DNA of 64,000 nt from Armatimonadota bacterium (GTDB lineage Bacteria; Armatimonadota; HRBIN16): assembly GCA_963677485.1 (NCBI GenBank), contig OY781964.1, forward strand, positions 2,571,288-2,635,287. The letters run 5' to 3'. Each line of letters starts with the position of its first letter. The stretch's first letter is position 1. Both the position numbers and the translations under genes were made by a program. The notes beneath the pieces are model-generated. The model saw nothing but the letters and a program-made list of their open reading frames with translations, searched no databases and was not told the DNA's origin. Of this stretch, positions 2,460 through 4,420 are shown one piece after another.

Positions 2460-4420
2460 TTTTCGCCAACTCCTCTAATTTGTGATAGTGCTCCTGAATC
2501 GTAGGCTTTACCTAGTTCATCGGCAGTGCTGTAGTGTGATAGTAGCTTCGCGTAACGGCCATATTCATCCACAGTGAGAACTTTACCGTCATAGCGAGTA
2601 GGCTCGAAGTAAGTGTATAGTTCGTATTTGAACATCTCACCTCGGTTGCTGACGTGATACGATGCCTCGATCATACGTCGGGCTACCGCACCACATGCCT
2701 TTTTGAAACCTCCTTTCTTCTGTCGTTTCCACATATTGTATCCCCAGTTACCCAGCGCTTCCTTGGGTCTGGCAATGAGGATTTGTGCGGCATGAGTGAG
2801 TGCTGAGTGTAACTTTTGATTCCCTCCACGCCTGGCCTGTGAGGTGACTTTACCTGCGCTGACCTTCAGGCTGGGGTCACAGCCGGCATATGCGGCTAGA
2901 GCCTTCGCATTTGGAAATCGCGTGGGGGTGATTACTTCCGTCATCCAGTAGAGGGTACTGAGTGGGCCGAAACCGGGGATGGAGAGCAGCAGCTCTTTCA
3001 ATCGGGTTCCATTGACAATTTCACCCGTTCCCAGAGTAAACTCTGTTGTGTCAGCGGTTTTCTGGGCGATCTGTTCATACTTCTTGACTTTACTAATCGC
3101 ATCGTCGTATTCTTTATACAGTTCATAGAAAACGGGTCTAACGGTTGGTGGGATGCCATCAGGGCACACACCGTTAGATCGAACAGGCCTATCCTCAAGC
3201 AAGTCTTGAATGATGGCTCGGCCACGTGATGACACTACGGGGTCTTCTGCGCCTATGGTGTGCCCGTATCGCAGCAGAAAATTATTGATGCGGTTTGAGG
3301 CTCGAAGTGCCATTCTTTTGGCGTCTTCGCGCATGTTTAGAAATATACGCAGCGTTTGTATGGGCATGGGTGCCAGGTATGATACCGGCCACATGCCAGT
3401 GATGGCATGGTATGCCAACAGCCGAGAGTCCAGTACATCCGTTTTACGTCTGGACGGGCTAGCGAGTAACGGATTGACCACCGATGGGATACCACCAAAT
3501 GCCCTGATGATGGGCAGGTGATATGTGCCGGTGCTCTCTATTGTGTATGCCAGACCGTGACTGTCAAGGGTATCTATGGCATCTTGATCGCCATATTTGA
3601 GTATGGTTTCTATACACCAATCTCGTGCTTGACAGAGTTGGTTCCATGAGGTAGTAAACTGCTGTTCGTGGCGTTTTACCCCATTTTCATTCCTGACATT
3701 GACACAAACTTGAATGAAGCGCGAATGACAGTCAATACCCACACCAAATGCCTTAAGGCTATATGCTTCTACCGCATCCTCTTGTTGAGAGGGGTCGGTG
3801 AACGAATCTCCTATTCGTGGTATATCCGACATGTTGTTATCGTCGCCCCCTTATGCGCAGCCTGGTTAACAGTAGTCACGCTACTATTGAATATACGGCG
3901 CTGTGTAATAATTATGGTGTATATATTTCTACGTGTCAAGGCTTTTTTACTAAATTTCAAGATATTTTTTCAAAATTTTTCGAAATTGGGTTTTGACACA
4001 CTTTTTAGTCGATAGTGACAATAATTCGGTCGTATGGACCAAAATCGGCTTAGGTTTCTTTGAGGTATATTGCTGTGCTGTTCGGCGAAATGAGGTGTTT
4101 TTGCGGGCGGATTTGCCTAAACGGGTACGTACATTAATGTATAGTACGTACACTGTATATAGTCTTTATAGGAGAAGCTGCACACCAACGCAGTGATGAG
4201 AAACTGTATGAGTTTGCGAATACCTGTCGTCATTTTGAGCTGATCCCTTCTGAATGCGAGACGGGGCATACTATTGATTCTCAGTATACAGCCTTAGCAG
4301 CACCGCGTGTCCCTTGCATGAGCAGTTGGTTATGTGCAAGAATCGGGTGATGCGGAACTGATGCGACTATAAATACAGCAATATCCAGCATACCGGAACT
4401 GATGAAATAGAGGACAACTT
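2400..4420 (-). mobile_element. IS110-family insertion sequence (approximate boundaries; no terminal inverted repeats expected for this family)
   Basis: A single DEDD transposase preceded on its 5' side (3833-4420) by about 590 bp of AT-rich non-coding DNA whose composition differs from the flanking sequence. Confidence 0.5.
2411..3832 (-). CDS. IS110-family transposase (DEDD RuvC-like N-domain plus Transposase_20 C-domain)
   Basis: N-terminus has GVGIDCHS...IESTGTYH, the D and E of the DEDD fold. C-terminus has SIPGFGPLSTLYWMTEVITPTRFPNAKALAAYAGCDPSLKVSAGK...RRGGNQKLH, typical of the IS116/IS110/IS902 Tnp_20 domain. Confidence 0.85.
   Translation of the reverse strand: MSDIPRIGDSFTDPSQQEDAVEAYSLKAFGVGIDCHSRFIQVCVNVRNENGVKRHEQQFTTSWNQLCQARDWCIETILKYGDQDAIDTLDSHGLAYTIESTGTYHLPIIRAFGGIPSVVNPLLASPSRRKTDVLDSRLLAYHAITGMWPVSYLAPMPIQTLRIFLNMREDAKRMALRASNRINNFLLRYGHTIGAEDPVVSSRGRAIIQDLLEDRPVRSNGVCPDGIPPTVRPVFYELYKEYDDAISKVKKYEQIAQKTADTTEFTLGTGEIVNGTRLKELLLSIPGFGPLSTLYWMTEVITPTRFPNAKALAAYAGCDPSLKVSAGKVTSQARRGGNQKLHSALTHAAQILIARPKEALGNWGYNMWKRQKKGGFKKACGAVARRMIEASYHVSNRGEMFKYELYTYFEPTRYDGKVLTVDEYGRYAKLLSHYSTADELGKAYDSGALSQIRGVGEKCLMHVKVILQPHVKK

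What the first reader, a model, noticed from the sequence alone, without database searches (positions are those of the whole stretch)
3833..4420. Long AT-rich 5' non-coding arm of an IS110-family element: candidate bridge/seek RNA locus
Seen in sequence: the transposase has DEDD and Tnp_20 motifs and no terminal inverted repeats. About 590 bp of AT-rich non-coding DNA lies upstream of the transposase start. It contains internal palindromes, e.g. tacattaatgta flanked by gtacgtaca/tagtacgtacac at about 4126-4160, and gtgtcaa...ttgacac at 3941-4001. Established knowledge: IS110-group elements encode a structured non-coding bridge RNA in this arm that programs target and donor recognition. Inference: the element here has the right architecture to carry one. 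If so, its target-binding and donor-binding loops could be read from the sequence.
Basis: partly seen in the sequence, partly recalled or inferred. Interest (0 to 1): 0.55.

Follow-up and report, generated by a model that had tools for sequence, protein, structure and literature searches.

The report
Bridge RNA inside a transposase mRNA leader

Summary
It was wrong about where the RNA lies and where the element ends.

- **Boundaries.** Related Armatimonadota genomes lack the element. They place it at window 1967-4172, with a CT core at both junctions. Only 339 nt (3833-4172) of the "590-bp arm" is element. Window 4174-4420 is host DNA, including the severed start of a GH43-like gene.
- **The RNA.** It runs about 3904-3789 on the minus strand, from an internal sigma-70 promoter. 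It has two covarying internal-loop modules found in about 50 relatives.
  - The target loop (3901-3855) has a 3' strand, TAACCAGGC. This strand is complementary to 2 nt of right end, the CT core and 5 nt of right host flank.
  - The donor loop (3850-3791) covers the Shine-Dalgarno region, the ATG and about 14 codons. Its ATAGGAG is complementary to CT plus the first 5 nt of the left end.
- **Family-wide support.** These guide matches covary in 10-25 independent relatives.
- **Differences from IS621.**
  - The left-donor contact is remote.
  - The promoter is internal.
  - A conserved OB-fold second gene is present.

All evidence is computational. I rate it a new variant of a known kind.

The parts
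1967..4172 (-). Whole IS110-type element body (2206 bp): left end (LE), recombinase gene, ORF2, right end (RE)
   Evidence: Empty-site relatives L119-L122 have the GH43-like and URO-D genes adjacent, with ...CCCAG|AAGCTG... at the site. The window has ...AACCAG|GCACCC...TATAGGAG|AAGCTG....
4173..4174 (-). Left copy of the core dinucleotide CT
   Evidence: A 2-nt ambiguity (AG on the + strand) at both junctions against the empty site.
1965..1966 (-). Right copy of the core dinucleotide CT
   Evidence: Same comparison.
4175..4185 (-). Left target flank (LT) GTGTGCAGCTT. This is host DNA, codons 17-20 of the interrupted GH43-like gene.
   Evidence: Conserved in the empty sites. Only TTC matches the left-target guide strand.
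1956..1964 (-). Right target flank (RT) GGTTATCGC, host DNA
   Evidence: Present in empty sites; L121 has CT-GGTTATTGG. GGTTA is complementary to the right-target guide.
3833..4172 (-). Left-end non-coding arm (339 nt)
   Evidence: Runs from the mapped left end to the ATG.
3911..3939 (-). Internal sigma-70-type promoter TTGACA-17-CATAAT; the inferred transcription start is about 3904
   Evidence: 11 of 12 consensus matches, the best site in 1900-4450. Conserved in L112, L113 and L114.
3855..3901 (-). Target-binding loop module: P1 3901-3898/3858-3855 and P2 hairpin 3886-3881/3875-3870
   Evidence: Covariance model R1 finds it upstream of the recombinase in about 50 loci. 94% of cells are paired and 177 show double changes against 49 in shuffles; slid controls give 45% or less. 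An independent MAFFT/RNAalifold run recovers it.
3887..3897 (-). 5' loop strand CGTATATTCAA (left-target-guide position)
   Evidence: Family-wide same-sense match to LT plus core: mean 3.6 against 2.7 nt, permutation p<2e-4. In this copy only 3 nt match.
3860..3868 (-). 3' loop strand TAACCAGGC: right-target guide plus 2 handshake-like nt
   Evidence: Reverse complement of GC|CT|GGTTA at 1968-1960. The same relation of 7-10 nt holds in 11 other elements, with mismatched-guide controls mostly 0.00-0.06.
3791..3850 (-). Donor-binding loop module: P1' GGGGGCG 3850-3844 / CGACCCC 3797-3791 and P2' hairpin 3830-3817. It contains the Shine-Dalgarno-like G-run, the ATG and codons 1-14.
   Evidence: P1' helix, self against cross pairing: 5.5 against 4.0 bp, p<5e-5, with at least 20 distinct helix sequences. 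P2' pairs covary. The minimum-energy fold of 3903-3780 gives the target loop plus a P1'-closed domain.
3808..3814 (-). Right-donor guide ATAGGAG
   Evidence: Reverse complement of CT plus CCTAT, the left-end start at 4174-4168. In 24 of 25 relatives the equivalent 6-8-mer anchored on CT occurs once, 110-460 nt upstream; controls are mostly 0.00-0.07.
3831..3843 (-). 5' loop strand of the donor loop, ACGATAACAACAT. AACAAC (3838-3833) is complementary to the right-end segment GTTGTT.
   Evidence: 6-8-nt complementarity to the right end, 17-27 nt from the core (45 nt in L007), in 9 of 10 independent elements: mean 6.2 against 4.2 nt, permutation p<2e-5.
2411..3832 (-). Recombinase gene (473 aa): DEDD RuvC-like domain, Tnp_20 domain and a C-terminal extension of about 70 aa with a GxGxK helix-hairpin-helix-like motif
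2064..2459 (-). ORF2 (131 aa), overlapping the recombinase 3' end by 49 nt. Its C-terminal 75 aa form an OB fold.
1967..2063 (-). Right-end non-coding region: hairpin 2036-2015, GTTGTT 1989-1984, subterminal hairpin CCCC-TAC-GGGCGGG 1983-1970, terminal GGGTGC 1972-1967
   Evidence: Conserved in L112 and L114 up to the core. Folded as single-stranded DNA, z -2.62. An equivalent hairpin precedes the terminus in other relatives.
4125..4154 (-). They lie inside the left end, 18-47 nt from its tip, and are not part of the RNA.
   Evidence: The 15-mer AGTGTACGTACTATA (4154-4140) and the 13-mer CTCAAAGAAACCT (4064-4052) are shared with L114 at equal spacing, 90 and 91 nt. Their function is unknown.

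Best explanation
Window 1967-4172 is an IS110-group insertion sequence that entered a CT core 20 codons into a GH43-like gene.

Its recombinase mRNA is made from an internal sigma-70 promoter (3939-3911) and starts with a bridge RNA of about 115 nt (about 3904-3789). The RNA has two modules.

- **Module 1, the target-binding loop (3901-3855).** It is a stem, an internal loop and a hairpin.
[quoted passage not shown] Two more nucleotides pair with the terminal GC of the right end, like a handshake guide.
  - The 5' loop strand is in the left-target-guide position and pairs weakly in this copy.
- **Module 2, the donor-binding loop (3850-3791).** It has the same architecture.
  - The 5' loop strand AACAAC pairs with a right-end segment 17 nt from the core, on the far side of a subterminal hairpin.

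The recombinase (DEDD plus Tnp_20, with a catalytic serine) would use this RNA to bring together the circular donor junction and the target, as IS621 does.

What is shown and what is inferred:
- **Shown:** the boundaries, the structure covariation and the guide/junction covariation.
- **Inferred from family knowledge:** that the pairing is RNA-DNA, and that recombination goes through a circle.
- **Inferred only:**
  - Because the donor loop contains the Shine-Dalgarno-like G-run and the AUG, folding or recombinase binding would block translation.
  - The OB-fold ORF2 and the C-terminal extension may assist on the donor side.
For: **Boundaries.** Empty sites in four related contigs give exact junctions with CT at both sides.

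**Family.** NCBIfam IS110 equivalog scores above its cut-off. The catalytic residues are invariant.

**Structure.**
- The leader model hits about 50 loci, always upstream of the recombinase and on its strand.
- P1 and P2 show 94% pairing and 177 double-change cells against 49 in shuffles; slid controls give 45% or less.
- RNAalifold on an unfitted alignment finds the same helices plus P2'.
- P1' covaries, p<5e-5.
- A conserved U-G pair (26 of 50 sequences) makes the structure specific to the transcribed strand.

**Guides.**
- Right-target guide: 7-10-nt matches in 12 elements, running into flank that is present in empty sites.
- Right-donor guide: 24 of 25 loci, and five different left-end starts covary with it.
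- Left-target guide: p<2e-4.
- Donor 5' strand against the right end: p<2e-5.
- The strand rules for the right-target, right-donor and left-target guides are those published for IS621 (PMC11208160, read).

**Promoter.** 11 of 12 consensus matches, conserved in relatives.
Against: - No RNA or activity data exist; everything is comparative.
- In this copy the left-target guide matches only 3 nt.
- A canonical left-donor guide (same sense as the right end, next to the core) is not supported (p=0.06).
- The thermodynamic z-score of the RNA alone is modest (-1.75).
- The minimum-energy fold of the inner donor loop differs from the comparative model.
- Alignment A7 was fitted to the model.
- The element is single-copy in the window and in the 5.2-Mb contig context seen, so current activity is unproven.
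- If translation really starts at GTG 3742, the overlap with coding sequence disappears.
- No Rfam family matches.
Confidence: 0.8

Rival explanations
1. The leader is only a cis-regulatory mRNA structure, such as translational repression or 5'-3' RNA-RNA pairing of the start-codon region with the 3' UTR. On this view it is not a DNA guide.
For: The donor loop contains the Shine-Dalgarno-like G-run and the AUG. The AACAAC/GTTGTT partner lies inside the element, downstream of ORF2, and could be on the same transcript.
Against: The 3' strand of the first loop matches 5 nt of host flank that exists in genomes without the element. The ATAGGAG-type segment matches the left-end tip, which lies upstream of the promoter. 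Neither partner is on the mRNA, so RNA-RNA pairing cannot explain them.
Confidence: 0.05
2. The complementarities work at the DNA level. They would be subterminal inverted repeats or single-stranded DNA guides read by the recombinase, as in IS200/IS605, without an RNA.
For: Covariation between sequences cannot itself tell RNA from single-stranded DNA. The right end folds well as single-stranded DNA (z -2.62). The element also encodes an SSB-like OB-fold protein.
Against: The protein is an above-cut-off member of the IS110 RNA-guided family. The motif begins a few nt after a conserved promoter. It has the stem / internal loop / hairpin architecture and the strand rules of IS621 bridge-RNA loops. 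Conserved U-G pairs favour RNA.
Confidence: 0.08
3. One reading: the bridge RNA lies in the distal AT-rich arm, and the palindromes at 4126-4160 and 3941-4001 are its stems.
For: An 8-bp GTACGTAC stem can form. Two short blocks there are conserved with L114.
Against: This part lies upstream of the conserved promoter. It folds no better than shuffles (z -1.26). It is not conserved beyond the closest relatives. It holds no segment matching the junctions. Part of the proposed arm (4174-4420) is host DNA.
Confidence: 0.03

Closest known systems
IS621 / IS110-group bridge recombinase with bridge RNA (Durrant et al. 2024, PMC11208160; Hiraizumi et al. 2024, PMC11208158)
   Same: - DEDD plus Tnp_20 recombinase.
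- No terminal inverted repeats.
- CT core at both junctions.
- The RNA is encoded on the recombinase strand at the left end, in the order target loop then donor loop.
- Each loop is a stem, an internal loop and a hairpin.
- The right-target and right-donor guides pair with the top strand and include the core; the left-target guide is same-sense.
- Two extra nt next to the right-target guide match the donor end, like a handshake guide.
   Different: - The RNA is the 5' end of the recombinase mRNA, made from an internal promoter. In IS621 the promoter is rebuilt across the circle junction.
- The donor loop spans the Shine-Dalgarno region, the ATG and about 14 codons.
- No left-donor guide next to the core was found. 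Instead the 5' strand pairs with a right-end segment 17-27 nt away, across a hairpin.
- The protein is 473 aa with a C-terminal extension.
- A conserved OB-fold second gene is present.
- The left end has about 230 nt more upstream of the promoter.
- No 5' stem-loop precedes the target loop.
IS1111-group elements with seekRNA / bridge RNA in the right end
   Same: Same recombinase superfamily and the same RNA-guided logic.
   Different: In IS1111 the RNA is downstream of the gene, and 7-17-bp subterminal inverted repeats flank the donor. Here the RNA is upstream, the model finds nothing downstream, and no such repeats exist.
ISPpu10 structure-gated bridge recombinase (bioRxiv 10.64898/2026.03.19.712850)
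   Same: An IS110 element in which a DNA hairpin next to the recognised sequence matters, and whose bridge RNA lacks the 5' stem-loop (abstract).
   Different: There the hairpin is in the target. Here the conserved hairpin is in the donor right end, and its role is only inferred.

Membership tests
IS110 family (RNA-guided DEDD recombinase elements) | RuvC-like DEDD domain with its catalytic residues | tested here: met
   D34, E99, D132 and D135 are invariant in 24 homologues. NCBIfam NF033542 scores 152.8 bits against a cut-off of 140. Pfam DEDD_Tnp_IS110 scores only 26.5 bits against 29.
IS110 family (RNA-guided DEDD recombinase elements) | Tnp_20 domain with a conserved serine | tested here: met
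   Pfam PF02371 at 61.3 bits. S325 in SLKVSAGK is invariant.
IS110 family (RNA-guided DEDD recombinase elements) | No terminal inverted repeats; insertion at a short core that is present at both junctions | tested here: met
   No flanking inverted repeat. CT is found at both junctions against four empty sites.
IS110 group bridge RNA (IS621 type) | Structured non-coding RNA on the recombinase strand at the left end, with two internal loops | tested here: met
   Two covarying stem / internal loop / hairpin modules at 3901-3855 and 3850-3791.
IS110 group bridge RNA (IS621 type) | Target loop: the right-target guide is complementary to the top strand of core plus right flank, and the left-target guide is same-sense as left flank plus core | tested here: met
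   Right-target guide: 9 nt here and 7-10 nt in 11 relatives. Left-target guide: significant across the family (p<2e-4) but only 3 nt here.
IS110 group bridge RNA (IS621 type) | Donor loop: the right-donor guide is complementary to the top strand of core plus left-end start | tested here: met
   7 nt here; found in 24 of 25 relatives.
IS110 group bridge RNA (IS621 type) | Donor loop: the left-donor guide is same-sense as the right-end terminus plus core (it pairs with the bottom strand next to the core) | tested here: not met
   The same-sense match is not above controls (p=0.06). Instead the 5' strand is complementary to the right-end top strand 17-27 nt from the core.
IS110 group bridge RNA (IS621 type) | The RNA lies wholly in the non-coding left end and is driven by a promoter rebuilt at the RE-LE junction | tested here: not met
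   The donor loop overlaps the ATG and codons 1-14 of the longest ORF. A conserved internal promoter exists. By eye, the best junction -35/-10 pair has a 20-nt spacer; no tool was run on the junction.
IS110 group bridge RNA (IS621 type) | Match to a curated covariance model | tested here: inconclusive
   No Rfam 15 hit at E<=10 over 1500-5500. I could not establish whether Rfam holds a bridge-RNA family. The authors' own models were not available.
IS110 group bridge RNA (IS621 type) | The recombinase binds the RNA, and the RNA programs recombination | not testable with these tools
   Needs biochemistry or genetics.
IS1111 group | RNA in a long right end; subterminal inverted repeats of 7-17 bp | tested here: not met
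   The non-coding right end is 97 nt with no model hit. No such repeats exist.

The most novel reading that the evidence does not exclude
This subfamily would be a distinct three-part bridge system.

- **Guide and mRNA in one.** The guide RNA is the translated mRNA's own 5' end. The ribosome-binding site and start codon are locked inside the donor loop. The recombinase would then load in cis on its own message and shut off its own translation.
- **Remote donor recognition.** The donor right end would be recognised through pairing on the far side of an extruded DNA hairpin. The element's OB-fold (SSB-like) protein and the recombinase's C-terminal helix-hairpin-helix tail would help. This implies a single-stranded or hairpin donor intermediate, not the fully duplex donor of IS621.
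Probability: 0.3. Interest if true: 0.75.

Novelty: new variant of a known kind. Interest (0 to 1): 0.6.

Why it matters
Bridge recombinases are being developed as programmable DNA-insertion tools, and only a few architectures have been described.

This subfamily has hundreds of members at about 470-550 aa, mostly from metagenomes. Its guide positions can now be read directly. In this copy:
- right-target guide: 3868-3860
- left-target strand: 3897-3887
- right-donor guide: 3814-3808
- remote left-donor contact: 3838-3833

The set of related loci provides natural junction pairs to validate these positions.

It also shows a guide RNA merged with the mRNA's translation start, an internal constitutive promoter and a conserved OB-fold partner. 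These features bear on open questions about how expression, loading and excision against insertion are controlled.

For annotation, the element interrupts the signal-peptide region of a GH43-like gene. The ORF start called at 2031 is therefore an artefact of the insertion.

Tried and rejected
- **Rfam scan of 1500-5500 at E<=10.** Only two chance snoRNA-like hits.
- **Other copies in the window.** None found. The exact protein is found only in the same context.
- **L007/L018 copy pair.** It first suggested a left boundary at the start codon. L018 is truncated by another IS, so I dropped this.
- **Global alignment of the arm with L114.** Uninformative in AT-rich sequence. Exact-word analysis worked instead.
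- **TCAATAGTA at 4278-4270, identical to the leader.** It looked like the left end, but it is host DNA conserved in the empty sites. It was a red herring.
- **Reading the variable 3 nt after GCCTG as element-internal.** The empty sites show they are target flank.
- **Same-sense similarity of the right end to the P1' 5' strand as a canonical left-donor guide.** Not significant (p=0.06).
- **L118, the closest complete genome.** It has a different arrangement and gave only a bound, left end below 4331.
- **Distal left-end fold.** z -1.26.
- **Junction promoter, by eye.** Spacer of about 20 nt, so not supported.
- **One shuffle script.** It timed out.
- **ORF2.** No Pfam, PHROGs or NCBIfam match. 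The two-sequence AlphaFold model was poor (pLDDT 57) until a 33-sequence alignment was used.
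Full report
**What is at the coordinates**

ORF 2411-3832 on the minus strand encodes a 473-aa protein.
- Pfam Transposase_20 scores 61 bits. DEDD_Tnp_IS110 scores 26.5 bits, just below the gathering score of 29.
- It scores 152.8 bits against a cut-off of 140 on NCBIfam NF033542, 'IS110 family RNA-guided transposase'.
- In an alignment of 24 homologues, D34, E99, D132, D135 and the Tnp_20 serine S325 are invariant. 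All members share a C-terminal tail of about 70 aa with a GxGxK motif.

The stretch upstream of the ATG is AT-rich, with GC 0.34-0.37 over 3801-4100. The GTGTCAA/TTGACAC pair is at 3993-3999 and 3933-3939, not 3941-4001. There are no terminal inverted repeats, and the element is single-copy in the window.

**Where the element really ends**

The URO-D protein next door belongs to a 90% cluster with members in other Armatimonadota assemblies. In four contigs (L119-L122) the GH43-like gene and the URO-D gene are adjacent, about 190 nt apart, with no element.

Aligning these with the window gives this, on the + strand:
- empty site: ...CCCAG|AAGCTGCACAC...
- window: ...GATAACCAG|GCACCCGCCC ... CTTTATAGGAG|AAGCTGCACACC...

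The 2-nt ambiguity (AG, which is CT on the recombinase strand) is the core. The layout on the recombinase strand is:
- left target: GTGTGCAGCTT, 4185-4175
- core: CT, 4174-4173
- element body: 4172 down to 1967
- core: CT, 1966-1965
- right target: GGTTATCGC, 1964-1956

Window 4174-4420 is host DNA. In the empty-site genomes the GH43-like gene starts at the position equivalent to window 4233. The element has therefore cut off its first 20 codons, MTTGIRKLIQFLITALVCSF. This follows from the L119 gene coordinates and the sequences.

The 131-aa ORF2 (2064-2459) and about 100 nt after it lie inside the element. DNA homology with the 76%-identical relative L112 runs from 3986 to 1964, and the flanks diverge after the terminal block.

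**A conserved structured leader**

The closest relatives (L112/L113 at 76% aa identity, L114 at 71%, L044 at 60%) share a TTGACA-17-CATAAT promoter and the roughly 80 nt between it and the ATG. They include a hairpin whose arms change in a compensatory way. The window's promoter (3939-3911) matches 11 of 12 consensus positions and is the best site in the region.

A covariance model of this leader found it upstream of the recombinase, on the same strand, in about 50 of 93 family loci, and once in the window.

On the resulting alignment:
- 94% of cells pair, and 177 cells carry double changes against 49 in shuffles.
- Sliding the partners by 1-3 columns drops pairing to 45% or less.
- That alignment is fitted to the model. 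However, RNAalifold on an independent MAFFT alignment of 32 sequences recovered the same two helices.

The motif is as follows:
- P1, 4 bp: 3901-3898 with 3858-3855.
- An internal loop.
- Hairpin P2: 3886-3881 with 3875-3870.
- One P2 pair is U-G in 26 of 50 sequences, which ties the structure to the transcribed strand.

**The first loop reads the target**

The 3' loop strand, TAACCAGGC (3868-3860), is the reverse complement of GCCTGGTTA at 1968-1960. That sequence is 2 nt of right end, the CT core and 5 nt of host flank. The flank nucleotides are present in genomes without the element; L121 has CT-GGTTATTGG. An element-encoded sequence therefore matches the pre-existing target.

The same relation holds in other elements with different sequences:

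| Locus | Matching sequence | Length |
|---|---|---|
| L112 | GCCTGATA | 8 nt |
| L044 | GCCTGCTTGT | 10 nt |
| L080 | CGCCTGATTT | 10 nt |
| L005 | GGCTGTGAGA | 10 nt |
| L082 | AGCCTCCTG | 9 nt |
| L024 | GCCTCACG | 8 nt |
| L026 | GTCTCCTT | 8 nt |
| L007 | GCCTGGTT | 8 nt |
| L003, L047, L114 | match runs to the contig end | 7 nt |

Guides from other loci reach these lengths in 0-6% of trials for most of them.

This is the published rule for a right-target guide: it pairs with the top strand and includes the core (PMC11208160). The two conserved extra nucleotides that match the donor's terminal GC resemble a handshake guide. That term is used in PMC13626964; the comparison is my inference.

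The 5' loop strand is in the left-target-guide position. Once left junctions were known for 23 loci, its same-sense match to left flank plus core averaged 3.6 nt against 2.7 nt for swapped guides (permutation p<2e-4). Good cases are L010 (7 nt), and L071 and L026 (6 nt each). In the window only TTC matches. A strong right half with a weak left half is what recent preprints call half-match recognition (abstracts).

**A second loop reads the donor, and it overlaps the start of the gene**

Searching the element for matches to its own junction found ATAGGAG at 3814-3808, in codons 7-9. It is the reverse complement of CT plus CCTAT, the core and the first 5 nt of the left end.

Relatives with known left ends show the same relation at the same place, 14-22 nt after the start codon, behind a conserved CCAC/GCAC:

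| Locus | Segment | Left end it complements |
|---|---|---|
| L114 | TAGAGTAG | CT-ACTCTA |
| L069, L091, L007 | AGGGGAG | CT-CCCCT |
| L054, L095 | GACGAG | CT-CGTC |
| Thermogutta copies | ATAGCAG | CT-GCTAT |

I then used this in reverse. In 24 of 25 loci with enough upstream sequence, the reverse complement of this segment, anchored on CT, occurs once at 110-460 nt upstream of the first loop. For the 7-8-nt matches (19 of the 24 loci), swapped-guide controls are 0-7%; for the five 6-nt matches they are 13-35%. This is a right-donor guide by the IS621 rule.

Around it the sequences form a second stem / internal loop / hairpin module:
- **P1'.** In the window it is GGGGGCG 3850-3844 with CGACCCC 3797-3791. 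Its 5' strand ends 13-16 nt before the inner hairpin and its 3' strand starts 19-23 nt after it. At least 20 different helix sequences occur, for example GGGACG/CGTCCC, TGGACGCG/CGCGTCCG, GGCGGTA/TACCGCC and ACTCGG/CCGAGT. Self pairing gives 5.5 bp against 4.0 bp for cross pairing, p<5e-5.
- **P2'.** The inner hairpin (3830-3817) starts at the G of the ATG, and its pairs covary.

The minimum-energy fold of 3903-3780 reproduces the first module and a P1'-closed second domain (-32.5 kcal/mol, z -1.75). Its inner hairpins differ from the comparative model.

**The left-donor side is unusual**

IS621's left-donor guide is same-sense with the right end next to the core. I found no significant same-sense match here (p=0.06).

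Instead, the 5' strand of the second loop, the 6-8 nt just before and including the start codon, is complementary to a top-strand segment of the right end. That segment lies 17-27 nt from the core in most elements and 45 nt in L007, just upstream of a small GC hairpin. Examples:

| Locus | Loop strand | Right-end segment |
|---|---|---|
| window | AACAAC | GTTGTT (1989-1984) |
| L112 | | ATGTTGTT |
| L003 | | TGTCGTT |
| L080 | | ACCTGGC |
| L047 | | TGACTTT |
| L005 | | GACAAAA |

This holds in 9 of 10 independent elements, with a mean of 6.2 nt against 4.2 nt for swapped guides (permutation p<2e-5).

Whether this is RNA-DNA pairing across an extruded hairpin or RNA-RNA pairing with the 3' UTR cannot be decided from sequence.

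**Other parts of the element**

ORF2 has no Pfam, PHROGs or NCBIfam match.
- Its C-terminal 75 aa are conserved downstream of the recombinase in many family loci.
- They define a small family of 41 cluster representatives among 1.8 billion.
- With a 33-sequence alignment, AlphaFold2 gives pLDDT>=95 for residues 50-123 as five strands.

- It shares two short blocks with L114 at equal spacing.
- It also has a terminator-like hairpin at 4043-4025.
- It folds no better than shuffles and lies upstream of the promoter.
- Its role is unknown.

**Mechanism proposed**

| Status | Statement |
|---|---|
| Shown | Exact insertion at a CT core; a two-module covarying structure at the 5' end of the recombinase transcript unit; loop strands that covary with the right target, the left-end tip, a right-end subterminal segment and, more weakly, the left target |
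| Inferred from established knowledge of IS110/IS621 | The structure acts as an RNA bound by the recombinase. It pairs the circular donor junction with the target for serine-mediated strand exchange at CT. |
| Inferred only | The Shine-Dalgarno-like G-run is the 5' strand of P1' and the AUG is in P2', so RNA folding or protein binding should block translation, giving cis-loading and autoregulation. ORF2 and the C-terminal tail may help on the donor side. |

One caveat applies. The only other in-frame start before the catalytic GID motif is GTG 3742. If that is used, the RNA is entirely 5' UTR. In some relatives (L028, L054, L007) the second module lies well upstream of the coding region.

**Comparison and verdict**

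The element passes the protein and junction tests for the IS110 family. Its RNA passes the two-loop, right-target-guide, right-donor-guide and left-target-guide tests for an IS110-group bridge RNA.

It fails two features of the IS621 archetype:
- a core-adjacent same-sense left-donor guide;
- confinement to the non-coding left end with a junction promoter.

It also adds a second gene. No Rfam model matches. I could not run the authors' own models, so I cannot exclude that this architecture is already in their predicted set. They report predictions for 85.7% of IS110-group elements.

I file it as a new variant of a known kind.

Noticed in passing
window 4174-4233 and 850-2031 (minus strand): The element interrupts the GH43-like gene 20 codons after its start. 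The severed N-terminus MTTGIRKLIQFLITALVCSF, which looks like a signal peptide or lipobox, lies at 4233-4174. The body resumes at 1964 (..WLSLSGHAMGDVAKS). The mechanical ORF start GTG 2031 is inside the element's right end.
   Followed up: partly
window 2064-2459 (minus strand): ORF2 overlaps the recombinase 3' end by 49 nt. It has a disordered N-terminal half and a confidently predicted SSB-like OB fold. It is conserved across the subfamily, has no family name in any library, and has only 41 cluster representatives.
   Followed up: partly
L033, L034, L037, L038, L040 (Thermogutta MAG JAAZNR01): At least five copies of a roughly 620-nt fragment made of the left end, both RNA modules and only the first ~85 codons of the recombinase, after which the sequences diverge. 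In some copies the donor guide ATAGCAG is tandemly duplicated. These could be decayed copies or recombinase-less guide-RNA satellites.
   Followed up: partly
L007 2275-2391 and 4779-4895: A 42%-identical relative carries 117-nt inverted repeats (87% complementary) inside its left and right ends. The window element has nothing comparable.
   Followed up: no
window 4140-4154, 4052-4064, 4025-4043 (minus strand): The distal left end holds a 15-mer and a 13-mer shared with L114 at the same spacing (90 and 91 nt), two GTACGTAC palindromes, and a terminator-like hairpin just upstream of the internal promoter. The hairpin might insulate the element from outside transcription.
   Followed up: partly
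window 2015-2036 and 2440-2450: The right-end hairpin GGCACGTGA...TCACGTGCC is conserved in L112. An 11-nt perfect complement of one arm (CCTTCACGTGC) sits at the start of ORF2. The significance is unknown.
   Followed up: no
L118 5140-6000 (GCA_942492855.1): The closest complete genome (URO-D 91% aa identity) has neither the GH43-like gene nor the element at this position. It has an unrelated 860-nt spacer instead, so this neighbourhood varies among close relatives.
   Followed up: no
L028, L054, L095: In these relatives about 390 nt separate the RNA modules from the recombinase start, and the codon aligned with the window's ATG is TTG and out of frame. The overlap of RNA and coding sequence is therefore not universal in the family.
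   Followed up: no
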